A stretch of DNA of 64,000 nucleotides from NCBI RefSeq assembly GCF_022846255.1, contig NZ_AP025682.1. One strand, given 5' to 3'. This stretch comes from Escherichia coli. GTDB taxonomy: Bacteria; Pseudomonadota; Gammaproteobacteria; Enterobacterales; Enterobacteriaceae. Every line of letters starts with the position of its first letter. The stretch's first letter is position 1. Under the pieces are notes generated by a model. That model did not search any database. It was given only the letters and a program-made list of their open reading frames with translations, and had not been told where the DNA came from. Positions 2,907 through 31,463 of the stretch are shown piece after piece. The translations under genes were made by a program, and so were the position numbers.

Positions 2907-2924
2907 GCAATTCCATGACAGGTA

Positions 2925-3853: not shown

Positions 3854-3880
3854 GATTCACTACTCCTTGTCTGATTATTT

Positions 3881-4651: not shown

Positions 4652-4836
4652 AACGTCCTTACCGGACAGGTGAAGTTTTTCAGCAATTCCCGGTAATACA
4701 GAACATAATTCTTCATTTCAATAATAAAGTCAGATATCAGGATTAATTTTCTTCCACAGGAATCAGAGCATTTATAATAAAATCGCTCAGGCATCCCCCC
4801 AACAAAGAGAACAGGAATCAGCTTCCAATAAAATTG

Positions 4837-5313
4837 TTAATTCAGTTCCCAGAACCAGATTTCCTTGCAGCTAAAATAGCAATGTGAATGACATATAGCA
4901 CCTGTGGTAGAAGGCTCAATAAGATCTATATGACCGCCACCGTAACCCGTAATTTTCCAGAAAAAGACCACTCCTCTTTTATTACTGGTGTCTGTTTTAA
5001 ATTTTTCTGAGTCACACCAGATAACTGGTCTTCCAAAAACATCAGCTCGGGAAAGCTGATCTGCCAGTAATTTCGCACCGGTTTCTATTTTCTTCCCTTT
5101 CCAGTCACCACTTTTGATCGTCAGTCGCCCGTTAAAGCTGACGCCTGATTTAATCAGCGCCAGACTCATACGTGTGGCACAGGTATTTACATAACCAGCA
5201 TTTTGCTGTTGCAGTGCTTCATAGTTATAACCCACTTCACTGTACAAAACATCACCATCAATCTGAACTGATGAGTAATGGTTTTTTTTAAGTGTGAAAA
5301 ATGAAGGTTTCAT
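4837..5313 (-). CDS. tae4: Tae4-family peptidoglycan amidase effector
   Basis: 158 aa; motif NTCATRMSLALIKSG matches the Tae4 catalytic Cys region (NACPIRMSYVLN) and GGGHIDL the His region, by recall of Salmonella/Enterobacter Tae4; no signal peptide; start overlaps the stop of the upstream signal-peptide gene. Confidence 0.65.
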   Translation of the reverse strand: MKPSFFTLKKNHYSSVQIDGDVLYSEVGYNYEALQQQNAGYVNTCATRMSLALIKSGVSFNGRLTIKSGDWKGKKIETGAKLLADQLSRADVFGRPVIWCDSEKFKTDTSNKRGVVFFWKITGYGGGHIDLIEPSTTGAICHSHCYFSCKEIWFWELN

Positions 5314-6005
5314 TTATTATTTCCTTTATCACAGGAGTGTTTACTTAGTGCCTCAATAATAATATTTGCAGCCCGTTCATTCAGTTTATCTGACGTTTTT
5401 TTTCTGAAATACCAGTAAATAATCTCATCCAGTGTAACTGTTTTAATCGTTTTATAATCGCACCATGTTTTTCTTTCCGTGGCATCTTCTATACCCAAAA
5501 GATAGATTTTCGCATTAAGCCTATCCTGCCTGTTATCTGACTGCCAGAAGCGGAAAAAATCATCTCCGTTCAGATCGAACGCGCCAGAGGTCAGGTGTGA
5601 AACAGATGAATGCCGGGGAGATTTTTTTTCCGGTGATGCCATATCCGGGCAGGGAAACAGCCTGACCATCGCTTGTTCAATCAGAGTTGAAGCTCGCATA
5701 TTCATATCGTTAACCGACTGCTGATTAAGATATGTCAGTACCGATGAATAAAGTTCTATTTCATTAATCTTATTATATCCACACCAGGTTTTACTTTCTG
5801 TCGCATCACTCACACCAAGGACATACATCAGAACATTTTCTTTTTCCTGTGACGTTCCACGAGCATAAAATGACAAAAATTCCTGCGCACTGAGATTAAT
5901 ATAATCGGGGTCAATAGTTCCTGTGTTTTTTCTGATATCAGCAAAAACATTTCCTGACATGGCATATAACAAAAAAATAATAAAAAAACGCGTATATTGT
6001 TGCAT
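5310..6005 (-). CDS. tai4: Tai4-like periplasmic immunity protein, internally tandem-duplicated (two homologous domains)
   Basis: Signal peptide MQQYTRFFIIFLLYAMSGNVFA; the two halves are visibly homologous (…VLMYVLGVSDATESKTWCGYNKI… versus …KIYLLGIEDATERKTWCDYKTI…); 4-nt overlap with tae4. Confidence 0.5.
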   Translation of the reverse strand: MQQYTRFFIIFLLYAMSGNVFADIRKNTGTIDPDYINLSAQEFLSFYARGTSQEKENVLMYVLGVSDATESKTWCGYNKINEIELYSSVLTYLNQQSVNDMNMRASTLIEQAMVRLFPCPDMASPEKKSPRHSSVSHLTSGAFDLNGDDFFRFWQSDNRQDRLNAKIYLLGIEDATERKTWCDYKTIKTVTLDEIIYWYFRKKTSDKLNERAANIIIEALSKHSCDKGNNK

Positions 6006-6251
6006 ATCATGCTTCCTGAATCACGGTAGTAGGATGGTCGCTATAACGTCGGTTTAAGAAAGTTTATAGTTTTGTTGCGTCGTTGCCCTGCCATCTCAGT
6101 ATATAAGTGACATTAATGGTGCCTTTTTGCTCACCTGGTGTAACGGCCTGTTTTAGCATACAACTCCACGTCAAGACATCCGTGAATGCAGCCTTTAGCA
6201 TAGTCACATGGGTCCGGTAGTCTGCCAACGATACTGCCGCCGCCCGGCGTA

Positions 6252-9200
6252 TCACAGCGCTCGCTCCGGGCAGGCGAAGCGTTGTAATAGTCCGCGATCC
6301 ACTGGGTCAAAATCCCGTCCGGCGGTGATTTCCAGTATCACCCGCCGCCCGTCAAAGCTGTACTCCACCTGCTGTGTTCCCCGTACCGCCGTTTCTTGCG
6401 CTTTTCCCGCATCCAGCAGGTGAAACAGCGCCCACGGTCCATTAGTCAGCAGCGTCGAGGTGTCCTGGCGGATGCGCGGGCTGGCGGTTATTTCCGCCAT
6501 TGAGCCGTTGCGCGGACCCGGCCAGTTCACTTTCAGCGGCCTGACCGGGCCGTGAGCGTAACGCAGTACCTGGCCGTCAATGTCAATCACCAGTTCGGTG
6601 ATGGCCGGGTCCATATCCACGACGCGGACCTGCATCGCCCATGAGAACTTTTTCCCTCCGTCGCCGTTAAAAAACACGCTGCGGATCTGTTTCGCCTCCT
6701 GAAACGGCGTCAGGTCTGGACCCTGTAAGGTCATGTTGCCTTCGGTCGGTTTGTAGCGCCACGGGTTGCTGGCGGTATCCGCCAGTGGGGCCAGTTGCTT
6801 CGTCCAGAAGGCATCCAGCACGCCGCCGCTGGCAAAGATACGGTTAAAATCGTCCGCGCTGACCTCCTGCGGGCTGTCGGTGAAGGGGTAGCGCCCGTCG
6901 ATGGCGTCGCGGCACTCATCACCGATCACCGCCTCCATCTGCGCGTTCAGCACTTCACCGGTGCCGGCGTTGATTTTTCGCGTTCCCTGCTGCGTGAGAT
7001 CCAGCAGAATATTTTTCAGCGGCGCGGGCAGTTTTGCCGCCTCCAGTTGCAGTTTATCCGCCGCAGAAATGCGCCCCGGCAGAGTGCTCGCAGCCAGCGC
7101 ACTGTCGGCAATGGTGAGCTGGGTGTAGTACTCATTGAGCATCGTCAGCAGCGAATTTAATTGCGGCACGCCGCCGCCCTGCCCGCTGTCCGTCTGCCCG
7201 GAAACCACTTCCCGCAGGGCGGCGAAACGGTCATCCACCAGTGATTTTTCCAGCCGCTCTTCCGGGTGAATGTCCTGCAACAGCTTCGCCGTCTGCACCG
7301 CTTTTCCCGCATTGCCGGAGAGCCGGTCCTGCGCGCGCTGGGCCATCTGCTTTTGTCTGGCCTGCGCATTCAGCGGCGGCACCAGCGTGGTCTGCTCCAC
7401 CACCGCTTTACTCAGGCGCATCAGCGGGGAATCCGGCGAGGCCAGAGTACGCAGCACCTGAAGGTCATACGCTAGTCCAGGGCTACCGTCCTCCCCGGCG
7501 CTGTTGATGCTGTGAATGCTTGCCAGAAAATCCTGCCATCGGCGAGCATATTCAGCCAGGTACAGACGACGTACCTCACGGGTAACCGGGAGTTCCTGCC
7601 CCGGCAACTGGCTCATCACAATATCAGTCGTTTTTTTTTGCGCACTTTCCCGGCCCATCACCCAGGCGTCGTCCGCTGATGCGGCGGCGACAAACTCCGA
7701 CAGCCGTTTGTCGAACAGTTCCCGGTAGCCTTCGCGGGTGAAGATGCCGGGCACGCCCCTGTCCAGCGGCGCGCCATCCGTGCGGACAAAAACTGTTCCC
7801 GCATCCGCGCCCACAGCGCGAACCAGCGAAAACTCCTGCGGTGCTTCGCTCTCCATGGAAGCCAGGGCTCGAGTGTAGATACGCTCAGTGCTGGTATGGC
7901 CGTCAAGGAAGGCCCGCGCCTGGCGGATCAGCCCCTCATCTTTTTCCCAGGGCGAATGCACCACGCGGCTGCCGTCAAACAGGGCGTCAATATGCTCCAG
8001 CACGGCTGCGCGACCGCCAAACTCCGCTACGCTGTCGCGGTTGTCCAGATCGTTCAGCACCCAGGCGTGGATCTCCGCCGCGTTGTATTTGTCCTCGTGG
8101 TCCTTATCGAGGTTCAGCAGCAGATAAACATGCAGGGCGTCATAGGCGGCTTTGCTGTCCTGACGCGCAATCGCATCTGAAAGCACGTATTCCATTCGTT
8201 TCACCAGCGGAGGGAGCAGTAGCTGGTCCAGCAGGCGGTCATACAGGGATGCGACACTCTCCATCACCGGCGGGACGCTGTAAAGACCATAACGCCAGGC
8301 CAGCGGCGGCGAGTCCGGGTCCAGCCCCGGCCAGGCAGAGAGCGCCCGCGCCTGGTTCAGCAGGGCCGGAACAGGCTGCATAGCAGGTTTTCCGGTATAG
8401 GCTTTGACATCACCATCCAGTTGGGTCGTCCGGCTGGCGATTTCATTCAGATAACCGCTGTTACCCTGCTGGCTACCCTGCATTCCCTGCCACAACCAGA
8501 AAGCCAGCGCCAATACCAGCAGATGCCCGCCGGTACGCAGCAGGCGATAACGCCAGGCCCATTGAAGATTCGGCTCCACCAGGTGCGCTTCGCGGAAGAT
8601 AAACTGCGTCAGTAGATCGTGCAGGAAATAGCTGCGGTTGCCGTCCGGCAGGGTATGGGATGGGGAATCCGCCTTCCCTTTGATCGCCCGGACAAAACGC
8701 TGCCAGATGCCCGTCTGATCGGCCACCGCGTCTGCCTGCGCCTGCGCGGCACTGGTGAAAAATACGCCGCGCAGGGTGTTGTTAAGCTGGGTAGCATCAA
8801 ATTTTGAATCGAGGAAAATCTGTTCAATAGCTTCCAGCAGCGGCGCACCCAGCGCGGCAAATTCACGCGGGAAGCGGTAGAGCCGCTGACGGCTTTTAAG
8901 GTCATATTCTTCCTGCAACCGGGTATCCAGCCCCTGATCCAGCCGCTGTGTCAGGTTTGCCAGTTCCCGGCCACAGAGCGCATGCAGCGACTGCGGATCG
9001 CTGGCGTGACGCCTGCGGCTGTAAGGCAGGGTGAAGCCCCAGACCTGGGCTCGCAGGTGACTGGTCAACCCACGGAAATACTCCGTAAAGCCCGGCAGCA
9101 GATCCATCTTGGTGACAACCAGATAGACCGGAAAACGAATGCCCAGCGTCTCCCGCAGTTCCGCCAGCCGCGCACGCAGAGCTGCACAGGCAGCCAGCCG

Positions 9201-10118
9201 TTCCGCCGGGGACTGCGCGGTCAGATCCGCCACGTTCAGCGTCAGGATCACGCCGTTGAGCGGTGCGCCGGGGCGGTGTTTACGCAGCAGTCCCAGAAAC
9301 CCCTGCCACTCCCCGGCGTTGCGCTGGGTCGCGCTGATTTCGCCACCGTCATCGTGGCGAGCATAGCGCCCGGCGGTGTCAATAAGCACTGCTTCGTTGG
9401 TAAACCACCAGTCGCAGTGCAGCGTGCCGCCGCCCGGCACGGTGAGAATATGCGCGGTTTGCTCCATCTGCTCCGCCAGCGGAAACTGTAGCCCGGTGTT
9501 AAGCAGCGCGGTGGTTTTACCATCGCCGGGGCTGCCGATAACCATAAACCACGGCAGCTCGTACAGAAAACGCTTTCCTTCCAGGACTTTTCGCCAGCCA
9601 GGAAGATCCACACGCAGTTGTTTCAGTTGCCGGATGGCGCGGTTGACAATATGGCTGACGGTACGCAGGTCGGCTTTAATTTCCCCCTCCACCGGTACGT
9701 CTTCCCCACGCGGATGCAGGAAACGGCGCAGCAGTTGTTCATCCAGACGCAGCGCCCGCCACAGCCGGTACAGGCCATACAGCGCATAAGTCAGCAGGAT
9801 CAGACCGATAAGCGTCAGACGCAGCCACAGCGGCGCAAATGGATGAACATCACCGAGGGACAGCAGGGGTGAAACAAAACCGATGACCAGGCACAGAACC
9901 GTCACGCCAATGATGCTCATCGACCAGTTAACCAGCCACAGTGCGAGGAACATCAGTAACAGAACGATGGTGACTACCCGACTTCCCACAGACGCGAGCG
10001 GATGCACGGTGTCAAACGCCACCAGCGGCCCGATAAACCAGACCAGCAGCGCCAGTACCGCCACGCCGACAACAGCCAGCGCGCGGCGGGAAAACAGCAG
10101 ACTGAGAAATTTTTGCAT
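6252..10118 (-). CDS. tssM: T6SS membrane core protein TssM (IcmF family)
   Basis: 1288 aa; N-terminal transmembrane segments, Walker A GSPGDGKTT, large periplasmic C-terminal region; typical IcmF architecture. Confidence 0.9.
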   Translation of the reverse strand: MQKFLSLLFSRRALAVVGVAVLALLVWFIGPLVAFDTVHPLASVGSRVVTIVLLLMFLALWLVNWSMSIIGVTVLCLVIGFVSPLLSLGDVHPFAPLWLRLTLIGLILLTYALYGLYRLWRALRLDEQLLRRFLHPRGEDVPVEGEIKADLRTVSHIVNRAIRQLKQLRVDLPGWRKVLEGKRFLYELPWFMVIGSPGDGKTTALLNTGLQFPLAEQMEQTAHILTVPGGGTLHCDWWFTNEAVLIDTAGRYARHDDGGEISATQRNAGEWQGFLGLLRKHRPGAPLNGVILTLNVADLTAQSPAERLAACAALRARLAELRETLGIRFPVYLVVTKMDLLPGFTEYFRGLTSHLRAQVWGFTLPYSRRRHASDPQSLHALCGRELANLTQRLDQGLDTRLQEEYDLKSRQRLYRFPREFAALGAPLLEAIEQIFLDSKFDATQLNNTLRGVFFTSAAQAQADAVADQTGIWQRFVRAIKGKADSPSHTLPDGNRSYFLHDLLTQFIFREAHLVEPNLQWAWRYRLLRTGGHLLVLALAFWLWQGMQGSQQGNSGYLNEIASRTTQLDGDVKAYTGKPAMQPVPALLNQARALSAWPGLDPDSPPLAWRYGLYSVPPVMESVASLYDRLLDQLLLPPLVKRMEYVLSDAIARQDSKAAYDALHVYLLLNLDKDHEDKYNAAEIHAWVLNDLDNRDSVAEFGGRAAVLEHIDALFDGSRVVHSPWEKDEGLIRQARAFLDGHTSTERIYTRALASMESEAPQEFSLVRAVGADAGTVFVRTDGAPLDRGVPGIFTREGYRELFDKRLSEFVAAASADDAWVMGRESAQKKTTDIVMSQLPGQELPVTREVRRLYLAEYARRWQDFLASIHSINSAGEDGSPGLAYDLQVLRTLASPDSPLMRLSKAVVEQTTLVPPLNAQARQKQMAQRAQDRLSGNAGKAVQTAKLLQDIHPEERLEKSLVDDRFAALREVVSGQTDSGQGGGVPQLNSLLTMLNEYYTQLTIADSALAASTLPGRISAADKLQLEAAKLPAPLKNILLDLTQQGTRKINAGTGEVLNAQMEAVIGDECRDAIDGRYPFTDSPQEVSADDFNRIFASGGVLDAFWTKQLAPLADTASNPWRYKPTEGNMTLQGPDLTPFQEAKQIRSVFFNGDGGKKFSWAMQVRVVDMDPAITELVIDIDGQVLRYAHGPVRPLKVNWPGPRNGSMAEITASPRIRQDTSTLLTNGPWALFHLLDAGKAQETAVRGTQQVEYSFDGRRVILEITAGRDFDPVDRGLLQRFACPERAL

Positions 10119-10445
10119 TATTGTTCAGAACTCCACATTGTAATCATCAACAATAAAAGGCCACAAGCTGAAAATGTTTTCCCGATTCAGCACAAAAAAA
10201 TAGATGGCGATCCGAAACATCACTAAACCTGAAAAATAAAATTTCGCAGCATCATTTTATTTACATCATCACGCAACAACGTTGTCATTATAAGGTTTAT
10301 GCTCAATATTTTAATTTATATACAAAATCATTCGAGTTGCATCAAGGCGGCAAGCGAGAGGATCCCGAATCATTTATTCCGGTAAGTGACTCGGGTGAAC
10401 GAGTGCAGTCAACGCAGAGGCAACCTGAAGGATAAGGTGTATACA

Positions 10446-11259: not shown

Positions 11260-11350
11260 TACACAATCTCCTTTTTGTTAAAAAATAATAGTCAGATCAG
11301 AACACCATATTTTATTGTTAGTTTTCTGACCTAACCATAGTCATATTAAT

Positions 11351-12667: not shown

Positions 12668-14007
12668 TTATCGCGAACTCCCCACAGCTCCAGCTCCAGC
12701 CCTGGAAACTCTCCGGCGGTATGCATTGCCATGCCACCATAGCGGGCGATATGTTCCCACAACACGCCGTCGCGGCGGATGTCGTAATAGATGTAACCGG
12801 ACTGGAACGGGATCTGACGCGGTGGCACTGGCAGCACCTGTAGAACAAGACCAGGAAGGTGCGAGCGAATCAGTTCCGGCAGGCGTTCTGATGGCCCTAT
12901 TTTGGTCTGAGCCGAAAAATGTTGTAGTAAGGTGTCGGCGGACATCTGTGCCTTCACCGCCAATACTAACGAGCTGAAATCTGACAGTTCGGTAGGTTCA
13001 ACCACCGCATTGAGAATACCGTAAGTTCCCTCTTCCAGAGGGATTCGCTGCGCCCCACGTATTAGCACAGCATTCAGCAGATACTGAACCTCGTCCACCA
13101 CCGATTTCAGCCCGGCATAGGGCGTCAGGTGCTTATATTCTTTATATTCTTCCGGACGACGTGTTTGCGGACGCACGTAGGTAGAGAGTTCTCCGGCCAG
13201 TGCGCAGAGGTTACGATAGAGTACTTCAGGCGATAGCGGCGTTTTCGACATATGGATCAATAAGGGGCCGAAACGATTAAGAACTTGCAGAAGCAGGTAA
13301 TCCGACACTTCCGCCGCTTCATGACCGTGTTTGTCGCTCCCCGTCAATCGTTCCGCCAGCGAATCTGCACGCATTTTTATCAGATCGTTAATCCACGACA
13401 GCCAGGTACATATCAGCGTACTGGCCTGGTAGTTCGCCACTGGCGGGATCAACTCTTTGTCTATATCGACCCGACCATCGGGATGCAGCGCCGTGATGCG
13501 CGTCAGCGGCAGGCCGATCCACGCGTCTGTCACCGCCTTTTCCGGTAACAGTCGCAAGCGCAGGTGGCTAAGTTGCAGCAGTTGCGCGCCTCGCCCCAGC
13601 GAATTGGCATCACGGATTTCACTTTCATGTACCGAAAAACGTGCCAGTGATTCAGGGTTATTGTCGAAACTGGTTTCTTCACTGTTCGGCGTACGTATTG
13701 GCACAGCCAGATAAATCAACTGGTTAAGATGTTCTGGAAGGATGGTCAGAGGCGGCGGGAGTGGTGTATGACCCGGCGCATTAAAAGGTGTACCGTCAGC
13801 AAATACCCCGGAAGCCTTCGTAAGTACCAGTTTTCCGATGTTCAGCGCCTCACTACCAATACCATACTCATTGAAGCCCCAGTAAAAAGGTGAAAGAGGC
13901 AAACTGCGATAATGAATGACATGTTCCAGATAGCGTTCCTGCTGCTGAAACATCTGTGGCAACAAAAATTGTCCTTCACTCCAGACCACCCGGTTATTCC
14001 AACTCAT
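12664..14007 (-). CDS. tssK: T6SS baseplate protein TssK
   Basis: 447 aa; N-terminus MSWNNRVVWSEGQFLLPQMFQQQERY typical of TssK; 4-nt overlap with tssL. Confidence 0.85.
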   Translation of the reverse strand: MSWNNRVVWSEGQFLLPQMFQQQERYLEHVIHYRSLPLSPFYWGFNEYGIGSEALNIGKLVLTKASGVFADGTPFNAPGHTPLPPPLTILPEHLNQLIYLAVPIRTPNSEETSFDNNPESLARFSVHESEIRDANSLGRGAQLLQLSHLRLRLLPEKAVTDAWIGLPLTRITALHPDGRVDIDKELIPPVANYQASTLICTWLSWINDLIKMRADSLAERLTGSDKHGHEAAEVSDYLLLQVLNRFGPLLIHMSKTPLSPEVLYRNLCALAGELSTYVRPQTRRPEEYKEYKHLTPYAGLKSVVDEVQYLLNAVLIRGAQRIPLEEGTYGILNAVVEPTELSDFSSLVLAVKAQMSADTLLQHFSAQTKIGPSERLPELIRSHLPGLVLQVLPVPPRQIPFQSGYIYYDIRRDGVLWEHIARYGGMAMHTAGEFPGLELELWGVRDK

Positions 14008-14010
14008 AAT

Positions 14011-14565
14011 TTACTCATCCCGTTCTTTAATCACTATGGCGCTTTGCTCTATGCCAGCATCCAGTTCGACTTTTTTCTTTGGCATAAAGCGGCTGTACCA
14101 ACTTTTTTCCGGTGGATCAGGAATTTTATATGTAGCCCGCCAGACCGATTTTCCCAGATTGCGGTATCCGGCGAGGATCCCCAGCGTGGTAGTTTCCTTA
14201 TTGAGGGCGCGGCGTAATTTTTTCTCCTCGCCCGGACGCAGGATAAAGCTGTCGCGGTGGAGTAAATCATCGGCAAGAACAGCCTTGTCATTGTCCTGAA
14301 GGGACCACCAGTCCGCCGCCGTGAAAGCTGCATCAATTTTCAGTTCATAAACGCGTATCTCTATGGGCGCGGCTTTTTTCTGATTGTCAGGATTCACCTT
14401 ATCGGAAGCCTTAATCACCAGATCGAGTCTTTGTGACATCAGGTCCGGCACGTCGTCGCTGTCAATGCTGCACCCGGAAAGCAGGAAGACAAAAGACAAA
14501 GCTACCGCACATAACCACCCACCGGGGTTACGCCATTTATTCACTGTAATTTCCTTTAAAATCAA
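14011..14565 (-). CDS. tssJ: T6SS outer-membrane lipoprotein TssJ
   Basis: 184 aa; lipobox LLSGC after a signal-like segment; size and position (between hcp and tssK) typical of TssJ/SciN. Confidence 0.75.
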   Translation of the reverse strand: MILKEITVNKWRNPGGWLCAVALSFVFLLSGCSIDSDDVPDLMSQRLDLVIKASDKVNPDNQKKAAPIEIRVYELKIDAAFTAADWWSLQDNDKAVLADDLLHRDSFILRPGEEKKLRRALNKETTTLGILAGYRNLGKSVWRATYKIPDPPEKSWYSRFMPKKKVELDAGIEQSAIVIKERDE

Positions 14566-14611
14566 ATAATAAAAACCGGCCAGGCTATATACCTGGCCGG
14601 GAAAATGTTGC

Positions 14612-15103
14612 TTAAATTTCTTTGTTAGCTTTGAAATCGTAACCTGCCGTGATAGTGCCGCCGCTGCCGCCCTGCTGGTTCTGCACCACGTATTCCTGCT
14701 TCACGGTGCTGAAAGATAGTTCGACTCTCTCGCGGGAGGCGATCTCACCCTCCTTACTACCACTGGGGGAAACAACAGCCACAATCAGGTCAGTGAAGGT
14801 ATATTTGAGGTATTCCAGCGGATTGCCGCCTGCTTTGCGCATGACAAGGATGGACTTCGGAATATGCTTACCAGAGGCGCAGTATTTGAACAGGTTCGGG
14901 CTAGCGCGATCGATGTAATGTTCAAACTCCAGGTTAGTCACGGAGACTTTGCCGGATCCCAGACCGCTACCTGCGTGCATGGTGGACTCCTGGTGGATAT
15001 TCCAGCGCCAGCTCAGCACCTCAATTTCATTTTTATGTTTGTCATCCATTGACTCGCCGTCAATGCCGTCAATTTTCAGAAAAATGTCATAAGCCATTTT
15101 CAT
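14612..15103 (-). CDS. hcp: Hcp (TssD) tube protein
   Basis: 163 aa; AYDIFLKIDGIDGES...LSWRWNIHQ is the characteristic Hcp N-terminus; start may be the third codon (MAYD). Confidence 0.85.
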   Translation of the reverse strand: MKMAYDIFLKIDGIDGESMDDKHKNEIEVLSWRWNIHQESTMHAGSGLGSGKVSVTNLEFEHYIDRASPNLFKYCASGKHIPKSILVMRKAGGNPLEYLKYTFTDLIVAVVSPSGSKEGEIASRERVELSFSTVKQEYVVQNQQGGSGGTITAGYDFKANKEI

Positions 15104-15276
15104 TTCCTTATTAAGAATTACTTAAAATAATCCCTGGTTTATCTTCGCATATGAATTCAGGTAAACCATGGCCGTACAGAACCCCCTCTCCTTAATTTCA
15201 GAAGAATAGAAGGCTGTATAATTTCCGGTAATGAGATACCGGCACGTCATTAATTCACAAAATGAATGTATTACCT

Positions 15277-15729
15277 CTATTTACATGTCACAGATACCGA
15301 TGACTCTCCTGGTACCCGCTGCCCCGGCAAAGAAGATGCCTGGCACTGTGTCGCCAATGCAGGGACCGGTTGTGATAACCAAACCTGTCCATGGTTATAA
15401 ATACAGGAAACCCAGTAACGTTCACTATTCTGATTACTGGCCATTGTGGTATCCCATATTTGCCTGGTTTCACCCTTTATTGTCTCTGTCTCTGGTTTTA
15501 GATCCACCCGATTTTCAGGTTTTCCCTGCGACATCCCTACCCCGTCCAACCACAGACGGGGTTCATAGCGGGAAGATCTCTGCCACGATGCAGATATATC
15601 TGGCTCCAGTACTGTTGTTGAGGATTTTATATTGATAAACACGGGGCAACTGACTTCCCACGCAGTAACAAATTGTGAATAAAACAACATAAAACCCAAC
15701 AACAGAGAAAAAATAAAACGTGTCCCCAT
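15277..15729 (-). CDS. secreted Cys-containing protein, putative immunity protein for the upstream small protein
   Basis: 150 aa with signal-like N-terminus MGTRFIFSLLLGFMLFYSQFVTA; AT-rich; directly downstream (13-nt gap) of a 135-aa cytoplasmic-type ORF. Confidence 0.35.
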   Translation of the reverse strand: MGTRFIFSLLLGFMLFYSQFVTAWEVSCPVFINIKSSTTVLEPDISASWQRSSRYEPRLWLDGVGMSQGKPENRVDLKPETETIKGETRQIWDTTMASNQNSERYWVSCIYNHGQVWLSQPVPALATQCQASSLPGQRVPGESSVSVTCK

Positions 15730-15741
15730 TGAATCTATCCT

Positions 15742-16149
15742 CTACTCAATAATATAAAAAGCTTCCGCATTATTACTGGCATCAGGATATGTTCCATCGC
15801 TGCGCATTCCACCTTTTCGGGAAATAGGGCGTGCAGAGACTTTCGTGGTTTTACCTGTCCACTGGTCCATAACATAAATATACTGACTATCCTGTTCCAG
15901 ATAGAAAGCGGCATGCTTATGCTCATTCTGCCTCGAGGGATACTTTCCGTTAACAAAAGTGGCAATTGCTGTTCCTCTGGGGATCGATTTATCCCCAAAA
16001 ACCTTTCGCCCCTGCTTCCAGGCTCCAGTATTCCCCACATGTGCATATACCTGAACTAAGAACACACATTCCTTTCTGTCTCCTGCCCCCGCCATTCCCA
16101 CCATGTCAGTGCCCTGCAATGAATCTACCAGTCCATAAACATATGCCAT
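15742..16149 (-). CDS. hypothetical small protein, candidate Hcp-dependent effector (possible Cys/His hydrolase)
   Basis: 135 aa, no signal peptide; Cys28 and a His cluster (EHKHAAFY) about 50 residues downstream; sits between tssC and hcp, followed by a signal-peptide ORF. No motif confidently recognised. Confidence 0.3.
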   Translation of the reverse strand: MAYVYGLVDSLQGTDMVGMAGAGDRKECVFLVQVYAHVGNTGAWKQGRKVFGDKSIPRGTAIATFVNGKYPSRQNEHKHAAFYLEQDSQYIYVMDQWTGKTTKVSARPISRKGGMRSDGTYPDASNNAEAFYIIE

Positions 16150-16199
16150 ATATCCCCCAGAGTATTACCCGGCATCATTCATTAAAATATTCATAAAAA

Positions 16200-17714
16200 T
16201 CAGGCATTACCCTGTTTTACTGACGGCAGTTTTGTCACCAGACGCAGTGATCCTGTTAACCCTTCAAGCTGAAAATGCGGGCGCAGGAAGAATTTGGCGT
16301 CGTAATAGCCCGGATTCCCCTCCACCTCTTCCACCACCACTTCAGCAGCTGCCAGCGGGCGACGAGCTTTGGTTTCCTGTGAGGAGTTCACCGGATCGGC
16401 ATCGACGTAGTTCATGATCCACTCATTGAGCCAGCGCTGCATATCTTCGCGCTCTTTGAACGAGCCGATCTTGTCGCGCACGATACATTTGAGGAAGTGC
16501 GCAAACCGTGAGCAGGCGAAAAGATATGGCAAACGAGCTGAGAGATTGGCGTTGGCCGTAGCATCCGGATCGTAATACTCCTGCGGTTTTTGTAGAGACT
16601 GCGCGCCAATAAAGGCGGCGTAATCAGAGTTTTTGCGGTGGATAAGTGGGATAAAACCATTTTTCGCCAGTTCAGCTTCACGACGGTCAGAGATGGCAAT
16701 TTCTGTCGGGCATTTCATATCCACGCCGCCGTCATCGGTCGGGAAGGTATGACAGGGCAGATTTTCCACCGCGCCACCAGATTCAACACCGCGGATCAAC
16801 GTACACCAACCGTAATGTTTGAAAGAGCGGTTGATATTTACACCCATTGCATAGGCGGCATTGCTCCAGACATATTTGCTGTGATCTGCGCCATCCGCAT
16901 CTTCTTCAAAATCAAACTCATCGACAGGGTTTGTTTTCGCACCATAAGGCAAACGGGAGAGAAAACGTGGCATCGTCAGGCCAATGTAGCGAGAATCCTC
17001 ACTTTTTCGCAGCGAGTTCCACGGTGCGTATTCGAGGTTTTGGGTCACAATTTTGGTCAGATCACGCGGGTTAGCCAGTTCCTGCCAGGAATCCATCTGC
17101 AACACTGATGGAGAGGCCCCAGCAATAAACGGCGCATGGGCTGAGGCTGCCACTTTGGCAATGGAGCCGAGCAGATCCACATCCGGTGGCGTGTGATCAA
17201 AATAATAATCCGCAATAATACAACCGTAAGGTTCTCCGCCTAACTGCCCATATTCGGCTTCATACAGCTTTTTGAACATGGGGCTTTGATCCCACGCGAT
17301 CCCTTTGTAACGCTTCATATTTTTCCGCAATTCATCCTTCGAAAGGTTCATAAAGCGGATTTTTAATTTTTCATCGGTTTCGGTGTTGTAAACCAAATGT
17401 TCCATCCCACGCCAGGAGGACTCCAGTTTCTGAAATTCCGGATGATTCAGGATTAGTTTGATCTGCTCAGTTAATTTGAAATCGATCTGCTCAATAATTG
17501 CAGCAATACTTTTATAAGCATCATCACTAACAGTGATCGTATTTGTCAGAGCCTGTTGGGCCAGCGTCTGAACTGCCGCCTCAACAGCCTTTGCAGCCTG
17601 AGGAGTCTTGGGACGGAAAGCTTTATCCAGCAGCGAATCAAATTCCGTTTCCTGATAGGCAGTGGTTTGCGCAGCAGAGAGGTCGCCAGTCGCCAGAAGA
17701 GTATCGTTTACCAT
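16200..17714 (-). CDS. tssC: T6SS sheath large subunit TssC
   Basis: 504 aa; highly conserved TssC/VipB-like sequence throughout. Confidence 0.9.
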   Translation of the reverse strand: MVNDTLLATGDLSAAQTTAYQETEFDSLLDKAFRPKTPQAAKAVEAAVQTLAQQALTNTITVSDDAYKSIAAIIEQIDFKLTEQIKLILNHPEFQKLESSWRGMEHLVYNTETDEKLKIRFMNLSKDELRKNMKRYKGIAWDQSPMFKKLYEAEYGQLGGEPYGCIIADYYFDHTPPDVDLLGSIAKVAASAHAPFIAGASPSVLQMDSWQELANPRDLTKIVTQNLEYAPWNSLRKSEDSRYIGLTMPRFLSRLPYGAKTNPVDEFDFEEDADGADHSKYVWSNAAYAMGVNINRSFKHYGWCTLIRGVESGGAVENLPCHTFPTDDGGVDMKCPTEIAISDRREAELAKNGFIPLIHRKNSDYAAFIGAQSLQKPQEYYDPDATANANLSARLPYLFACSRFAHFLKCIVRDKIGSFKEREDMQRWLNEWIMNYVDADPVNSSQETKARRPLAAAEVVVEEVEGNPGYYDAKFFLRPHFQLEGLTGSLRLVTKLPSVKQGNA

Positions 17715-17738
17715 GAAAGTTCCTTAATAAAATCGCAG

Positions 17739-18284
17739 TTAGTCTGCTGTTCCCGTTTCACCTGATAAGACACTTTCCTGTTGAGCGACAGGTTTTGGCG
17801 CGCTGGCCAGAGCTTTCAGTAACGTCGGGTCTTGTAATAGTTTGTTGATCAGATTTTCTGCTCCCGCTTTACCATCCATGTAGGTTTGCAGGTTGGCAAG
17901 CTGAGTACGTGCTTCCAGCAGCTGGTTCAGGGCATCCACCTTACGGGCAATCTGCGCAGGCGAGAAATCGTCCATATTCTCCAGCGTGATATCGACCATC
18001 AACTGCCCTTCGCCCGTCAGCGTATTGGGGACAGCAAACGCCACGCGCGGCGCAATGGCTTTCATCCTCTCGTTGAAGTTATCGATATCAATATCAAGGA
18101 ATTTACGATCGGTGACCGGCGGCAGCTCTTCACGCGGTTTACCCGCCAGGTCGGCCAGCACCGCCATGACAAACGGCAGTTCGATTTTTTTCTCGGAGCC
18201 GTAAATCTCAACGTCATACTCAATCTGCACGCGGGGCGCGCGGTTGCGGGCAATAAACTTCTGCGCGCTGTTGTTGATAGCCAT
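17739..18284 (-). CDS. tssB: T6SS sheath small subunit TssB
   Basis: 181 aa; APRVQIEYDVEIYGSEKKIELPFVMAVLADL is the TssB/VipA signature. Confidence 0.9.
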   Translation of the reverse strand: MAINNSAQKFIARNRAPRVQIEYDVEIYGSEKKIELPFVMAVLADLAGKPREELPPVTDRKFLDIDIDNFNERMKAIAPRVAFAVPNTLTGEGQLMVDITLENMDDFSPAQIARKVDALNQLLEARTQLANLQTYMDGKAGAENLINKLLQDPTLLKALASAPKPVAQQESVLSGETGTAD

Positions 18285-18345
18285 AATCCTTCATTTCCTT
18301 ATCAGTGAGCCGACGACCACCAGGGGAGCGGTTCGACGGTACAGT

Positions 18346-18636
18346 TTAAAAATCATACGCAGAGAGTATTTTTATAATCTCTTTGTTTTCTTTGTACTTT
18401 TCCCGCAGCACAGGGAGTGATTTCTTTGCCGGAGGACACCAGGTATCAACCCCCTTTTCGATGTCTCTTTTATCCTTCTCTGGTAAAGAACTGTCCCATT
18501 CACCAGCAAGATGCTGGCACATTTCCGCATTACTCAGAAAATGCTGCACATCCTGTGGTAAAGGCGGTTCCCCCTGAACACAGAAAGCGAAAATCATTAA
18601 CAGGAATGTCAACAACATCGGATAACGAAATGCCAT
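18346..18636 (-). CDS. small secreted protein, putative immunity protein for the upstream M15-like peptidase
   Basis: 96 aa with signal peptide MAFRYPMLLTFLLMIFAFCVQG; starts 2 nt after the stop of the peptidase-like gene. Confidence 0.35.
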   Translation of the reverse strand: MAFRYPMLLTFLLMIFAFCVQGEPPLPQDVQHFLSNAEMCQHLAGEWDSSLPEKDKRDIEKGVDTWCPPAKKSLPVLREKYKENKEIIKILSAYDF

Positions 18637-18638
18637 AC

Positions 18639-19202
18639 TTAATGTCCATCAATTGACCAGTGAGGTATATCTGTATTGCCGCCAACAAATTTTCTGACGC
18701 CGTAACCCAGACCTACCGCCTGAAGCTGGGCATTCATTCCGGTTCGAGGTAGTGTATTAATTGCAACATTCTGACCATTGCTCCCCGCAATTGTTAATGT
18801 TCCGCTCCAACTGATATTCATATCTATCGCAGTACCGCGTGTATGGTTGGAGCTCAGTGCAGGCGCGACATTCAGATTATTCATACCATAGGCCGTAACC
18901 ATAGCCTGCGCCGCTTCAAGCGAGGCTTGCTCAGTCGGGTGAACCCACTCAATATCCACCCCCTCCATCGCCGGGACGTTTTTTGCCTGAACGATTTCAT
19001 GAGCAATCAACCATGACCAGTGCATGAGATATGCTCTGGCGGGAGGGCGATATGTTGCAGAAATACTGACCCTTGCGCGTGCATTACCAAGCGCTCGCAA
19101 AAAATTATCTACCGATGCACGAAAAGTCCCCTGCAAATCATTAGTGGAAGAACTTCCAGGAAAGCGACTGACCCACAGTGCGCCACTTAATTCTTTTGCC
19201 AT
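18639..19202 (-). CDS. M15/LAS-family zinc peptidase-like protein, candidate peptidoglycan peptidase effector
   Basis: 187 aa, no signal peptide; motif SSNHTRGTAIDMN fits the M15 signature S-x-H-x-x-G-x-A-x-D, with a downstream His pair (DIPHWSIDGH); located between clpV and tssB. Confidence 0.45.
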   Translation of the reverse strand: MAKELSGALWVSRFPGSSSTNDLQGTFRASVDNFLRALGNARARVSISATYRPPARAYLMHWSWLIAHEIVQAKNVPAMEGVDIEWVHPTEQASLEAAQAMVTAYGMNNLNVAPALSSNHTRGTAIDMNISWSGTLTIAGSNGQNVAINTLPRTGMNAQLQAVGLGYGVRKFVGGNTDIPHWSIDGH

Positions 19203-19214
19203 AAGGATGCTCCA

Positions 19215-24403: not shown

Positions 24404-24418
24404 TTCAGAGAGAAACCG

Positions 24419-27294: not shown

Positions 27295-27304
27295 GGATAA
27301 TTTA

Positions 27305-30704: not shown

Positions 30705-31463
<759 letters not shown>

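What the first reader, a model, noticed from the sequence alone, without database searches (positions are those of the whole stretch)
4652..19202. Compositional mosaic: AT-rich effector/immunity inserts inside GC-rich T6SS core genes
By eye the structural genes (tssM, tssK, tssL, tssC, clpV) are GC-rich, whereas most effector/immunity pairs (tae4/tai4, the Tlde1-like pair, the tssC-hcp pair) and their flanks are markedly AT-rich. This is consistent with independent, possibly recent, acquisition of individual cassettes into an older scaffold.
Basis: seen in the sequence. Interest (0 to 1): 0.35.

Follow-up and report, generated by a model that had tools for sequence, protein, structure and literature searches.

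The report
AT-rich toxin cassettes in T6SS island
This is an E. coli copy of the Salmonella SPI-6-type type VI secretion island, in which small AT-rich toxin/antidote gene pairs sit between more GC-rich machine genes and are swapped between strains by recombination; the pattern is real but already described for this kind of island.

Summary
The window holds an E. coli type VI secretion (T6SS) island at tRNA-Asp. It is orthologous to Salmonella SPI-6.

**Observation: real, but overstated.**
- GC-rich core genes: tagF, tssM, tssL and tagJ to tssA, at 56-65% GC.
- Genome-average core genes: tssK, tssJ, hcp, tssC, tssB, clpV and tagK, at 49-54% (backbone 51%).
- All effector/immunity (E/I) genes are lower, at 34-49% GC and 31-44% GC3. 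GC3 does not overlap that of core genes (p=8e-5).
- Only two cassettes form sharp AT-rich blocks: tagF|tssM and tssM|tssL. The tssC-hcp pair (Tae2/Tai2) is only mildly AT-rich.
- A 1.4-kb AT-rich block at clpV-tagK is not a cassette.

**Interpretation: supported.**
- In 5,426 complete E. coli genomes, about 112 carry this tssM, but the window's cassettes occur in only 8-14 of them. One cassette is in 107.
- The slots are empty, or hold other pairs, in nearly identical clusters, and they assort independently.
- A Paraburkholderia relative has the same gene order with empty slots.
- Duplicated core-gene ends flank cassettes in Escherichia, Citrobacter, Enterobacter and Salmonella.
- Cassette-less strains carry a chimeric single repeat.
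- These point to homologous and homology-facilitated illegitimate recombination.

GC does not date the insertions, because AT-richness persists in deeply diverged homologues.

The phenomenon is already published for Salmonella, and the mechanism for Vibrio and Pseudomonas. Interest is low.

The parts
1493..2601 (-). AT-rich gene pair orf246 (with an HExxH-like 'SHELGH' motif) and orf123. It lies between the slot E cassette and the vgrG remnant, and is a probable further effector/immunity pair.
   Evidence: GC is .377 and .360. There is no Pfam hit. Homologues at 38-76% amino-acid identity sit at the same place in other genera.
2797..2907 (.). Distal copy of a 111-bp direct repeat. It is a displaced tagF 3' end, an orphan fragment covering TagF residues 216-252.
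   Evidence: The repeat is found. Local alignment gives z=66. The fragment is seen by tblastn. Cassette-less strains carry one chimeric copy.
2908..3896 (-). Slot E cassette, downstream of tagF: Tge2-like glucosaminidase (3383-3853) and Tgi2PP immunity (2925-3398).
   Evidence: Pfam Glucosaminidase and T6SS_Tgi2PP. GC is .427 and .416. The cassette is absent from 2014C-3338 and 2012C-4221. It is found in 8 genomes.
3881..4651 (-). tagF, a core accessory gene and the most GC-rich gene here. Its 3' end (3897-4007) is the proximal copy of the 111-bp repeat.
   Evidence: GC is .652. PGAP annotation is taken from a 99.8%-identical genome. Identity to VCSW7 is 90%, while the neighbouring genes are 98-100% identical.
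4652..4675 (.). 24-bp copy of the tssM 3' end, retained upstream of the tagF start. This is the left half of the duplicated tssM/tagF junction.
   Evidence: Window and VCSW7 alignments overlap on VCSW7 positions 9586-9676.
4676..6198 (-). Slot A insert: Tae4-family amidase (4837-5313), two-domain Rap1a-type immunity (5310-6005) and AT-rich flanks.
   Evidence: Pfam Tae4 and Rap1a. GC is .405 and .378. The segmentation block 4671-6210 has GC .391. VCSW7 and 2012C-4221 have an empty site. The insert is found in 10 of 5,426 genomes.
6199..6251 (.). Degenerate remnant of the tagF 5' end, directly after the tssM stop codon. This is the right half of the duplicated junction.
   Evidence: Shown. Local alignment gives z=6.3.
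6252..10118 (-). tssM, a GC-rich core gene.
   Evidence: GC is .610 and GC3 .705. Annotation.
10119..11350 (-). Slot B: Tlde1-domain effector (10891-11259) and its immunity gene (10446-10901). The 327-bp downstream flank carries an ERIC-like element (core at 10382-10401).
   Evidence: Pfam Tlde1_dom. GC is .420 and .342. The segmentation block 10091-11370 has GC .370. A20 has a different pair here. The cassette is found in 14 genomes.
11351..15103 (-). Core genes tssL (.588), tssK (.527), tssJ (.490) and hcp (.498). GC steps down inside tssK, near position 13600.
15104..16199 (-). Slot C: Tae2 amidase (BPSL0067 family, 15742-16149) and Tai2 (STY0301 family, 15277-15729).
   Evidence: NCBIfam hits. 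PDB 6WIN 'Type 6 secretion amidase effector 2' matches at E=4e-32. GC is .46 and GC3 .43-.44. Tae4/Tai4 replaces this pair in 97 genomes. The pair itself is found in 10 genomes.
16200..18284 (-). Sheath genes tssC (.496) and tssB (.531), both at genome-average GC.
18285..19214 (-). Slot D: orf187 (18639-19202), a predicted LAS/M15-type zinc peptidoglycan peptidase, and orf96 (18346-18636), a candidate immunity protein with an N-terminal hydrophobic stretch read by eye as a signal peptide (no predictor was run).
   Evidence: The AlphaFold model has pLDDT 96. The top 18 Foldseek PDB hits are all Ply500, VanY, VanX, LdcB or ChiX. H120, D127 and H181 are invariant. The slot is empty in A20. Citrobacter and Enterobacter keep only the orf96 homologue. 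The pair is found in 107 genomes.
19215..21848 (-). clpV (tssH). It is compositionally heterogeneous: the middle part is .59 and the 5' (N-domain) part is AT-rich.
21331..22770 (.). AT-rich block that is not a cassette. It covers the clpV 5' end, the divergent clpV-tagK intergenic region (GC .27) and the tagK 5' part.
   Evidence: Segmentation GC is .397. Intergenic GC is .271. tagK is the most divergent core-linked gene between strains.
22771..28351 (+). GC-rich core block: tagK 3' part, tagJ, tssE, tssF, tssG and tssA.
   Evidence: GC is .56-.60. It forms one .590 segment. Annotation.
28483..28559 (-). tRNA-Asp (aspV), the island's integration site next to dnaQ.
   Evidence: ARAGORN. Annotation.

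Best explanation
The region is an SPI-6-type T6SS island integrated at tRNA-Asp in E. coli.

**Structure.** A syntenic scaffold of core genes is interrupted at five or six gene junctions: after tagF, tssM|tagF, tssL|tssM, tssC|hcp and clpV|tssB. Each junction holds a two-gene cargo cassette. The effector is a small peptidoglycan hydrolase and the partner is its periplasmic immunity protein. The cassettes are Tge2/Tgi2PP, Tae4-family/Rap1a, Tlde1/Tldi, Tae2/Tai2 and a LAS-type peptidase with orf96.

**Composition.** The cassettes belong to a persistently AT-rich accessory gene pool (GC3 about .31-.44). The scaffold has its own stable gene-specific composition, .49-.65, with the same rank order in five genera.

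**Turnover.** It occurs in three ways.
1. *Allelic replacement.* A double crossover in the flanking core genes swaps the cassette and drags a neighbouring core allele (tagF or hcp) along.
2. *Gain.* One end of incoming DNA anchors by homology in the adjoining core gene and the other end joins illegitimately. This is homology-facilitated illegitimate recombination, and it leaves a duplicated fragment of the core gene beside the cassette.
3. *Loss.* Recombination between those duplicated fragments removes the cassette.

**Status of the steps.** Shown: the composition classes, the strain polymorphism, the duplications and the chimeric repeat. Inferred: the recombination pathway itself, and any regulatory role of the AT-rich DNA, such as H-NS silencing.
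For: **Identity of the island**
- The window is 99.8% identical to annotated E. coli T6SS islands.
- Gene order matches a Salmonella Derby SPI-6 contig. Amino-acid identities are TssB 96, TssC 94, Hcp 92-95, TssM 87, TssK 85, TssL 78 and TagF 76%.
- Cassette families are named.

**Composition**
- Three classes are seen. Cassettes have GC3 .373±.047, mid core .554 and high core .674, against a backbone of .542.
- The same ranking holds in Escherichia sp., Enterobacter, Citrobacter, Salmonella and Paraburkholderia.
- Alternative cassettes in other strains are equally AT-rich.36-.43.

**Polymorphism**.

**Replacement tracts**
- Window and VCSW7 are 98-100% identical, except tagF (90%) next to slot A and hcp (84-96%) next to slot C.
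- hcp alleles follow their cassette across genera. The Tae2-linked Hcp is nearer Salmonella Hcp-1, and the Tae4-linked Hcp is nearer Hcp-2.

**Duplication scars**
- A 111-bp tagF 3' repeat brackets Tge2/Tgi2PP in the window and in E1V33. In Salmonella the repeat is 76 bp at 95% identity.
- Cassette-less strains hold a single copy whose left half matches the distal repeat and whose right half matches the tagF repeat.
- The tssM/tagF junction is duplicated around the slot A insert.
- A 373-bp tssM 5' repeat (87% identity) brackets Tlde1/Tldi in Citrobacter. That unit starts with the last ~13 nt of tssL, as in the window's arrangement.
- An 886-bp repeat of hcp plus the tssJ 5' end (87% identity) brackets Tae4/Tai4 in Salmonella.
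- A 78-bp tagF 3' fragment sits in the tssL|tssM slot of Enterobacter, in front of another gene pair (z=27).

**Uncoupled history**: fourfold-site identities are.

**Decay of effector/immunity pairs**
- Citrobacter and Enterobacter keep an orphan orf96.
- Salmonella has a Tae2 remnant beside an intact Tai2.

**Precedent for the mechanism**: V. cholerae (PMC5361080) and P. aeruginosa (PMC11751169).
Against: - Slots B, C and D of the window itself carry no detectable flank duplication. For these slots the pathway is inferred from other strains and genera.
- The left half of the slot A junction duplication is only 24 bp, and its similarity is not significant on its own (z=1.6).
- A duplicated repeat with a cassette between its copies could also arise by integration of a circular intermediate. 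Sequence alone cannot separate that from homology-facilitated illegitimate recombination.
- Tae2/Tai2 and orf187/orf96 are widespread and sit at the same slot in several genera. For them 'insertion' is ancient, or they may predate the enterobacterial radiation of the island.
- No donor was found for the slot A cassette. The nearest non-identical relative is 78% identical, on an unnamed 1-kb contig, and named species reach at most 62%.
- The split into high and mid core classes was made after looking at GC, so its p-value is circular. The cross-genus consistency is the independent support.
- In this strain vgrG is truncated and frameshifted. The island may be inactive, and nothing here tests function.
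Confidence: 0.85

Rival explanations
1. The cassettes are ancestral parts of the cluster, inherited vertically. On this view their AT-richness reflects the proteins they encode (small, secreted, rich in Lys, Asn and Ile), low expression, or selection for H-NS binding. It would not reflect separate acquisition.
For: - AT-richness persists in homologues that have diverged to 34-69% amino-acid identity in four genera.
- Tae2/Tai2 is at the same slot in Escherichia, Citrobacter, Enterobacter and Salmonella.
- orf187/orf96 is in 107 of about 112 E. coli clusters.
- GC1 and GC2 of cassette genes are also lower than in core genes.
Against: - Empty sites and different occupants occur in clusters that are 98-100% identical.
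- Slot contents assort independently.
- Synonymous-site identity of cassettes is significantly higher than that of their flanks in two comparisons.
- Duplication scars and a chimeric repeat are present.
- The Paraburkholderia scaffold has no inserts.
- The largest contrast is in GC3 (.37 versus .55-.67), so amino-acid content does not explain it.
Confidence: 0.08
2. The cassettes are moved by a site-specific system, integron-like or transposon-like, that recognises sites at the slot borders.
For: - Cassettes are small and discrete, and they reuse a few slots.
- The same family appears in different slots. The Tae4-family pair is at tssM|tagF here but at tssL|tssM in E1V33, Enterobacter, Citrobacter and Salmonella.
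Against: - No 12-mer is shared between cassette flanks, and shared 10- and 11-mers lie within the range seen in shuffles.
- No inverted or direct repeats typical of transposons were found.
- No recombinase gene lies within the cluster.
- The flanking duplications are 76-886 bp copies of core genes, not short target-site duplications.
- The Salmonella literature also reports no mobile elements around these regions (PMC10469887).
Confidence: 0.03
3. The GC variation is ordinary gene-to-gene scatter or regional mutational heterogeneity, with no biological meaning.
For: One backbone gene, gloB, also has GC .405.
Against: - The variance of 500-bp GC is about five times that of the backbone (Levene p=1e-8).
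- Segmentation gives 12 breakpoints in 1-30000 and none in 29.7 kb of backbone.
- The breakpoints coincide with gene and insert borders.
- The pattern is reproduced in five genera.
Confidence: 0.01

Closest known systems
Salmonella SPI-6 T6SS island and its variable regions VR1-VR3 (Blondel et al. 2009, PMC2907695; PMC10469887; review PMC12288458)
   Same: - The scaffold and gene order are the same, and the island sits at tRNA-Asp.
- The variable positions are the same: downstream of tssC, around tssM and tagF, and downstream of vgrG.
- The effector families are the same: Tae2, Tae4, Tge2 and Tlde1.
- Blondel et al. 2009 report uneven G+C for the Salmonella T6SS islands SPI-19, SPI-20 and SPI-21: low-GC stretches (34-42%) encode proteins of unknown function, and T6SS genes are at 54-60%.
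- I measured the same pattern on a Salmonella Derby SPI-6 contig.
   Different: - The host is E. coli, where this island is rare: about 2% of complete genomes.
- A Tae4-family/Rap1a pair lies in a slot between tssM and tagF that is empty in the Salmonella, Citrobacter, Enterobacter and most E. coli clusters examined.
- There is a single hcp.
- vgrG and Rhs (VR3) are deleted in this strain.
- The Salmonella papers leave the exchange mechanism open ('lack of mobile genetic elements', PMC10469887). Here duplicated core-gene ends are documented.
Effector/immunity module displacement in Vibrio cholerae T6SS clusters (Kirchberger et al. 2017, PMC5361080)
   Same: - Modules are exchanged by homologous recombination in conserved flanks. 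More rarely they are exchanged by homology-facilitated illegitimate recombination anchored in the conserved upstream gene.
- Both processes leave displaced remnants and orphan immunity genes.
- The resulting clusters are a mosaic of DNA from different origins.
   Different: - In Vibrio the modules sit at the 3' end of clusters, after vgrG or tap. Here the cassettes lie inside operons of structural genes.
- The displaced remnants here are fragments of core genes (tagF 3', tssM 5', hcp plus tssJ 5'), not mainly immunity genes.
Effector swapping at vgrG islands of Pseudomonas aeruginosa (PMC11751169)
   Same: There is one sharp recombination breakpoint at the end of the conserved neighbouring gene and a less precise one on the other side. 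The authors interpret this as homology-facilitated illegitimate recombination plus homologous recombination.
   Different: - The T6SS type and the loci are different.
- The effectors there are vgrG-linked specialised or cargo effectors outside the structural operons.
C-terminal displacement and orphan modules in Rhs and CdiA toxin loci
   Same: An incoming piece with a conserved anchor replaces the resident end. The old end is pushed downstream as an orphan. The tagF 3' fragment behind Tge2/Tgi2PP follows this layout.
   Different: - In Rhs and CdiA loci the displaced part is the toxin domain of the same gene.
- Here the anchor gene (tagF, tssM or tssJ) is a structural gene, and the whole toxin/immunity pair is separate cargo.
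Integron gene cassettes
   Same: Small promoterless two-gene units are inserted into a transcribed array at recurring positions.
   Different: There is no integrase, no attC-like sites and no shared border motif. The borders are homologous to neighbouring genes instead.

Membership tests
SPI-6-type (i3) T6SS genomic island | The complete set of T6SS core genes in the SPI-6 order: clpV-tssB-tssC-hcp-tssJ-tssK-tssL-tssM-tagF ... vgrG, with a divergent tagK-tagJ-tssE-F-G-A arm. | tested here: met
   - PGAP names come from a 99.8%-identical genome.
- Order and 76-96% amino-acid identity match a Salmonella Derby SPI-6 contig.
- Exception: vgrG is truncated and frameshifted in this window.
SPI-6-type (i3) T6SS genomic island | Integration next to a tRNA-Asp gene (aspV). 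| tested here: met
   tRNA-Asp lies at 28483-28559, 131 bp from tssA and next to dnaQ.
SPI-6-type (i3) T6SS genomic island | Phylogenetic placement of TssB/TssC with SPI-6 and the Burkholderia tss-2 group. | tested here: inconclusive
   No tree was built. TssB and TssC are 96% and 94% identical to the Salmonella SPI-6 proteins and 79% and 82% identical to a Paraburkholderia cluster with the same gene order.
SPI-6 variable regions carrying effector/immunity modules | Strain-variable gene content confined to fixed positions between conserved core genes. | tested here: met
   Shown. Five slots have empty or alternative states in clusters whose core is 92-100% identical.
SPI-6 variable regions carrying effector/immunity modules | The variable genes are effector plus cognate immunity pairs of known T6SS families. 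| tested here: met
   - Tae4 and Rap1a, Tlde1_dom, Glucosaminidase and Tgi2PP (Pfam).
- BPSL0067 and STY0301 families (NCBIfam).
- Tae2, PDB 6WIN, E=4e-32.
- orf187 is assigned by fold only.
- Toxicity and immunity were not tested.
Horizontally acquired DNA by compositional criteria | GC, GC3, codon usage and dinucleotide signature deviate from host genes. | tested here: met
   - Cassette GC3 is .373 against backbone .542 (p=6.5e-6).
- The codon-fraction (RSCU) distance to the backbone is 1.36, against 0.40 for the mid-GC core.
- The dinucleotide signature distance (delta*) is 120, against 55.
- The GC-rich core genes also deviate from the host, in the other direction.
Homology-facilitated illegitimate recombination / displacement products | The inserted foreign segment is bordered on one side by uninterrupted homology. 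It is accompanied by a duplicated or displaced fragment of the anchor-side gene. | tested here: met
   - tagF 3' repeats of 111 bp and 76 bp.
- tssM 5' repeat of 373 bp.
- Repeat of hcp plus tssJ 5' end, 886 bp.
- tssM/tagF junction duplication.
- Chimeric single copy in cassette-less strains.
Homology-facilitated illegitimate recombination / displacement products | Microhomology at the illegitimate joint, and experimental dependence on RecA and on a one-sided anchor. | not tested
Integron-like or transposon-like cassette system | A dedicated recombinase and conserved recombination sites at the cassette borders. | tested here: not met
   - No recombinase gene lies in the cluster.
- No 12-mer is shared between flanks, and shared 10- and 11-mers are within the shuffled range.
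- No terminal inverted repeats were found.
H-NS (xenogeneic) silenced AT-rich islands | H-NS occupancy of the AT-rich segments, and derepression in an hns mutant. | not testable with these tools
   Only composition is available.27-.40 GC blocks at 4.7-6.2, 10.1-11.4 and 21.3-22.8 kb. H-NS silencing of SPI-6 is reported for Salmonella (cited in PMC12288458).

The most novel reading that the evidence does not exclude
The duplicated core-gene ends are footprints of how intra-operon cargo cassettes of SPI-6-type T6SS islands are gained, moved and lost. The footprints are the tagF 3' end, the tssM 5' end, hcp plus the tssJ 5' end, and the tssM/tagF junction.

- **Mechanism.** Entry is anchored in a neighbouring structural gene, and excision occurs by recombination between the repeats. 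This would fill the gap that the Salmonella literature leaves open.
- **Hopping between slots.** A cassette can carry its scar to a new slot, as with the tagF fragment in the tssL|tssM slot of Enterobacter.
- **The two hcp copies.** The well-known pair of hcp genes in Salmonella SPI-6 would be a by-product of one such event.
- **Co-adaptation.** hcp alleles travel with 'their' cassette (Tae2-linked versus Tae4-linked). This would suggest co-adaptation of Hcp and its cargo effector.
- **Composition.** The cassettes' AT-richness would be a maintained property, possibly tied to H-NS control, rather than a sign of recent arrival.
Probability: 0.5. Interest if true: 0.4.

Novelty: already known. 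Interest (0 to 1): 0.2.

Why it matters
- It shows at sequence level how a bacterial weapon keeps a stable firing machine while its ammunition is exchanged gene pair by gene pair. That exchange decides which strains can kill or resist each other in the gut.
- For annotation, low-GC two-gene blocks at fixed junctions of a T6SS operon are a reliable pointer to effector/immunity pairs. They flagged several unnamed pairs here.
- GC content should not be used to date such insertions.
- The general phenomenon and the recombination model are already published for Salmonella, Vibrio and Pseudomonas. The added value is confirmation in E. coli, plus the catalogue of duplication scars.

Tried and rejected
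1. **Flank duplications at slots B, C and D of the window.** Local alignment of each flank against the opposite core-gene end gave nothing above shuffles (z≤2.4).
2. **A shared border motif or att-like site among cassette flanks.** No 12-mer is shared, and counts of 10- and 11-mers are within the shuffled range.
3. **Promoter-like and terminator-like sites in 3500-22500.** There were 18 of each, not above shuffles (19.8 and 20.2). Nothing can be said about cassette-borne promoters. Only the hairpin after hcp looks convincing.
4. **Sequence search of orf187 against PDB.** No hit. The fold search was needed instead.
5. **Source of the slot A cassette.** The protein search found the exact protein only in E. 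coli. The next relatives are 78% and 67% identical on short unnamed contigs, and named species reach at most 62%. No donor was identified.
6. **The genome-contig scan with TssL.** It returned only five relevant loci, because the peptide patterns were too specific, and it missed Salmonella. Salmonella context was recovered through an exact-protein look-up instead.
7. **Pfam on orf246, orf123 and the alternative slot-B pairs.** No families.
8. **Greedy binary segmentation.** It missed tagF, so it was replaced by optimal partitioning.
9. **Brunet et al. 2015 on H-NS silencing.** The paper is not held in the library.

Full report
**What the region is**

The window is E. coli chromosome. Positions 4000-22500 match 14 complete E. 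coli genomes at ≥99% identity over the full length.
- Their RefSeq annotation names tagF, tssM, tssL (long form), tssK, tssJ, hcp, tssC, tssB and tssH/clpV on the minus strand.
- On the plus strand it names tagK, tagJ, tssE, tssF, tssG and tssA, ending 131 bp from tRNA-Asp next to dnaQ, rnhA, gloB and mltD.
- A Salmonella Derby SPI-6 contig has the same gene order. Amino-acid identities are TssB 96, TssC 94, Hcp 92-95, TssM 87, ClpV 86, TssK 85, TssL 78 and TagF 76%.
- So this is an E. coli member of the SPI-6-type island.

**The cassettes**

Two-gene pairs lie between the core genes.
- Tae4-family amidase with a two-domain Rap1a-type immunity protein, 4837-6005 (Pfam).
- Tlde1-domain effector with its immunity gene, 10446-11259.
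- Tae2 with Tai2, 15277-16149. These are the BPSL0067 and STY0301 families, and Tae2 matches PDB 6WIN at E=4e-32.
- orf187 with orf96, 18346-19202.
- Just outside the finding, a Tge2-like glucosaminidase with Tgi2PP, 2925-3853.
- Also outside, an unnamed pair orf246/orf123, 1493-2601.

orf187 has no Pfam or PDB sequence match. Several lines still point to an effector.
- A confident model (pLDDT 96) hits only LAS/M15 zinc peptidases among its top 18 PDB matches: Ply500, LysB4, VanY, VanX, LdcB and ChiX.
- H120, D127 and H181 are invariant in 24 homologues.
- orf96 begins with a hydrophobic stretch that I read by eye as a signal peptide; no predictor was run.
- Citrobacter and Enterobacter keep only the orf96 homologue, which is typical of an orphan immunity gene.

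**Checking the observation**

Per-gene GC gives three classes.

| Class | Genes | GC | Mean GC3 |
|---|---|---|---|
| High core | tagF, tssM, tssL, tagJ, tssE, tssF, tssG, tssA | .56-.65 | .674 |
| Mid core | tssK, tssJ, hcp, tssC, tssB, clpV, tagK | .49-.54 | .554 |
| Cassettes (12 genes) | all effector/immunity genes | .34-.49 | .373 |

- The mid core is indistinguishable from 21 backbone ORFs in the same window (GC .512±.035, GC3 .542, p=0.6-0.9).
- For the genes inside the finding, cassette and core GC3 do not overlap (Mann-Whitney p=8e-5).
- Codon-fraction and dinucleotide distances tell the same story.
- The island's 500-bp GC values vary about five-fold more in variance than the backbone's (Levene p=1.3e-8).
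- Optimal segmentation gives blocks of .655 (3901-4670, tagF), .391 (4671-6210), .612 (tssM), .370 (10091-11370), .574, .480 (13601-19360), .587, .397 (21331-22770) and .590.
- The same procedure finds no breakpoint in 29.7 kb of backbone.

It is overstated elsewhere.
- tssK, tssC and clpV are not GC-rich.
- The Tae2/Tai2 and orf187/orf96 pairs differ from their neighbours mostly at third codon positions, and they are not separate segments in total GC.
- One of the most AT-rich blocks is the clpV-tagK divergent region, which is not a cassette.

**Checking the interpretation by strain comparison**

- VCSW7's cluster is 98-100% identical to the window over nearly all core DNA.
  - In it, tagF overlaps tssM directly, so the site is empty.
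  - Its tssC|hcp slot carries classical Tae4/Tai4.
- 2012C-4221 is like VCSW7 and also lacks the Tge2/Tgi2PP pair.
- 2014C-3338 lacks only Tge2/Tgi2PP.
- A20 has a different pair between tssM and tssL, and nothing between tssB and clpV.

Counts among 5,426 complete E. coli genomes are below.

| Feature | Genomes |
|---|---|
| tssM, ≥80% coverage | 112 |
| Slot A insert | 10 |
| Tlde1 pair | 14 |
| Alternative slot-B pair | 97 |
| Tae2/Tai2 | 10 |
| Tae4/Tai4 | 97 |
| orf187/orf96 | 107 |
| Tge2/Tgi2PP | 8 |

- The combinations differ between strains, so the slots change independently.
- All alternative occupants are also AT-rich.36-.43.

**The scaffold is older, and its composition is a stable property**

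- Escherichia sp. E1V33, Enterobacter, Citrobacter and Salmonella show the same GC ranking of core genes. The order is tagF, then tssM and tssL, then tssK, then clpV, then tssB, tssC, hcp and tssJ.
- Their cassettes are equally AT-rich.
- A Paraburkholderia cluster keeps the order tssB-tssC-hcp-tssJ-tssK-tssL-tssM (TssC 82%, TssL 54% identity) and the same GC ranking on a 63% GC background.
- That cluster has only 25 bp between tssL and tssM, and about 115 bp between tssC and hcp. The slots are empty.
- Cassette homologues that have diverged to 34-69% identity, with saturated fourfold sites, are still AT-rich. GC therefore says nothing about how recent an insertion is.

**Uncoupled histories**

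Fourfold-degenerate site identity of cassettes against their flanks is as follows.

| Cassette and comparison | Cassette | Flanks | p |
|---|---|---|---|
| Tlde1/Tldi, window vs Citrobacter | 76% | 59% (tssM+tssL) | 9e-4 |
| Tae2/Tai2, window vs E1V33 | 96% | 81% (hcp+tssC) | 5e-5 |
| Slot A pair, window vs A20 | 89% | 78% | 0.002 |
| Tae2/Tai2, window vs Citrobacter | 37% | 51% | 0.05 |

Cassettes are sometimes younger and sometimes older than their flanks.

**How the exchange happens**

*Replacement with hitch-hiking.*
- Between the window and VCSW7, identity falls only in tagF (90%), beside slot A, and in hcp (84-96%), beside slot C.
- hcp alleles follow their cassette across genera:
  - The window's Tae2-linked Hcp is nearer Salmonella Hcp-1 (94.5% vs 92.1%).
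  - The Tae4-linked E. coli Hcp is nearer Hcp-2 (95.7% vs 93.2%).

*Duplicated core-gene ends.*
- In the window, Tge2/Tgi2PP is bracketed by a 111-bp direct repeat (2797-2907 and 3897-4007, 90% identity). The repeat is the tagF 3' end.
- The same arrangement occurs in VCSW7, in E1V33 and, at 76 bp and 95% identity, in Salmonella.
- The cassette-less strains have one copy. Its left half matches the distal repeat and its right half matches the tagF repeat. That is the product expected from recombination between the repeats.
- The slot A insert (4676-6198) is flanked by a duplicated tssM/tagF junction. There are 24 bp of the tssM 3' end before tagF, and a degenerate 53-bp tagF 5' remnant after tssM.
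- In Citrobacter, the tssL|tssM slot reads as follows:
  - Its gene order is Rap1a/Tae4-family, a truncated tssM copy (codons 1-132), Tlde1/Tldi, then full tssM.
  - The truncated tssM copy is a 373-bp repeat at 87% identity.
  - The Tlde1 unit begins with the last ~13 nt of tssL, as if copied from a cluster arranged like the window.
- In Salmonella the order in the tssC|hcp region is a Tae2 remnant, Tai2, hcp-1, tssJ' (codons 1-72), Tae4, Tai4, hcp-2 and tssJ. An 886-bp repeat (87%) brackets Tae4/Tai4.
- In Enterobacter a 78-bp tagF 3' fragment lies in the tssL|tssM slot in front of another gene pair (z=27). This suggests that a cassette moved between slots with its scar.

*What is absent.* No shared border motif, recombinase or transposon-type repeat exists.

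These features fit homologous recombination plus homology-facilitated illegitimate recombination. That is the model proposed for V. cholerae (PMC5361080) and P. aeruginosa (PMC11751169), and for Rhs/CdiA displacement. The pathway itself is inferred. Integration of a circular intermediate would give similar repeats.

**What is known already**

- Blondel et al. 2009 (PMC2907695) described, for the Salmonella T6SS islands SPI-19, SPI-20 and SPI-21, unevenly distributed G+C with low-GC regions (34-42%) encoding unknown proteins and 54-60% regions encoding T6SS genes.
- The same paper described three variable regions of SPI-6, and its relation to Burkholderia tss-2.
- Later work placed Tae2, Tae4, Tge2, Tlde1 and new candidates in VR1-VR3 (PMC10469887, PMC12288458).
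- PMC10469887 remarked that a recombination hot-spot idea lacked support because no mobile elements flank the regions.
- The finding is therefore an already known phenomenon, seen here in its E. coli orthologue.
- The scar catalogue is a modest addition.

**Limits**

- There is no experimental evidence.
- The genome counts depend on megablast thresholds.
- Only a handful of non-E. coli loci were examined.
- The split of the core into two GC classes was made post hoc.
- In this strain vgrG is reduced to about 136 frameshifted codons next to an ISAs1 element, and the Rhs region is gone. The island may be inactive.

Noticed in passing
window 1-1468: Only about 136 codons of vgrG remain, and they carry a frameshift (orf106 is the VgrG N-terminus). 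Compared with strain 2014C-3338, the DcrB and Rhs region has been deleted next to an ISAs1-family element. The island may lack its own spike gene in this strain.
   Followed up: partly
window 28483-28559 and 36707-36783; L028/L030 (E. coli G3X16-2): The window's island sits at aspV, next to dnaQ. In the majority E. coli lineage (tssM about 93.6% identical) the island sits about 8 kb away, at the other tRNA-Asp gene at the end of the rrnH operon. There it has integrase remnants and a truncated dkgB. In the window that second site is unoccupied. This suggests two separate integrations of the island in E. coli.
   Followed up: partly
L029 (E. coli C9) 4001-4049; window 10611-10659: A 49-bp, 100%-identical piece of the Tlde1-associated immunity gene survives between yafV and an IS1 next to tRNA-Asp, in strains that have no island. 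Seven genomes show it. It is a relic of island deletion.
   Followed up: partly
window ~10330-10440 (core 10382-10401): An ERIC-like repeat lies in the flank between the Tlde1 immunity gene and tssM. It has 2 mismatches to the 20-nt ERIC2 primer core as I recall it, with no match expected by chance. About 100 bp of this stretch is missing from the homologous Citrobacter flank.
   Followed up: partly
window 14576-14600 (- strand): A strong terminator-like hairpin follows hcp, before tssJ. It has a 10-bp stem with 8 GC pairs, then TTTTTATTAT. It could attenuate read-through after the highly expressed hcp.
   Followed up: no
window 21331-22770: A 1.44-kb AT-rich block (GC .397, intergenic part .27) covers the clpV N-domain coding region, the divergent promoter region and the tagK 5' part. 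tagK is also the fastest-diverging gene linked to the core: 53-86% amino-acid identity, compared with 84-97% for ClpV.
   Followed up: partly
window 18639-19202: orf187 belongs to a well-conserved family with no Pfam model. Homologues are 52-65% identical in Ralstonia, Herbaspirillum, Pectobacterium, Rhizobium and Burkholderiaceae. The predicted fold is a LAS/M15 zinc peptidase. In E1V33 and E. coli E69 it is reduced to fragments while orf96 stays intact.
   Followed up: yes
L031 (Salmonella Derby) 3563-4448 and 5350-6234: The two hcp genes of Salmonella SPI-6 belong to an 886-bp direct repeat of hcp plus the first ~72 codons of tssJ. The repeat brackets Tae4/Tai4. A 33-residue Tae2 remnant lies next to an intact Tai2 upstream.
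   Followed up: partly
L002 (A20), L004 (2012C-4221), L027 (RM9387): The island is often damaged in other strains. A20 has an IS21 element in hcp and a tssM frameshift. 2012C-4221 has a 1.1-kb internal clpV deletion. RM9387 has a tssM frameshift and an internal stop in tssL.
   Followed up: no
window 26085-26178: ARAGORN calls a 94-nt 'tRNA-His' inside the tssF coding sequence. It is most likely a false positive.
   Followed up: no
window 30708-31463: The housekeeping gene gloB has GC .405 and GC3 .365. That is as low as the cassettes, and it is the one backbone outlier.
   Followed up: no
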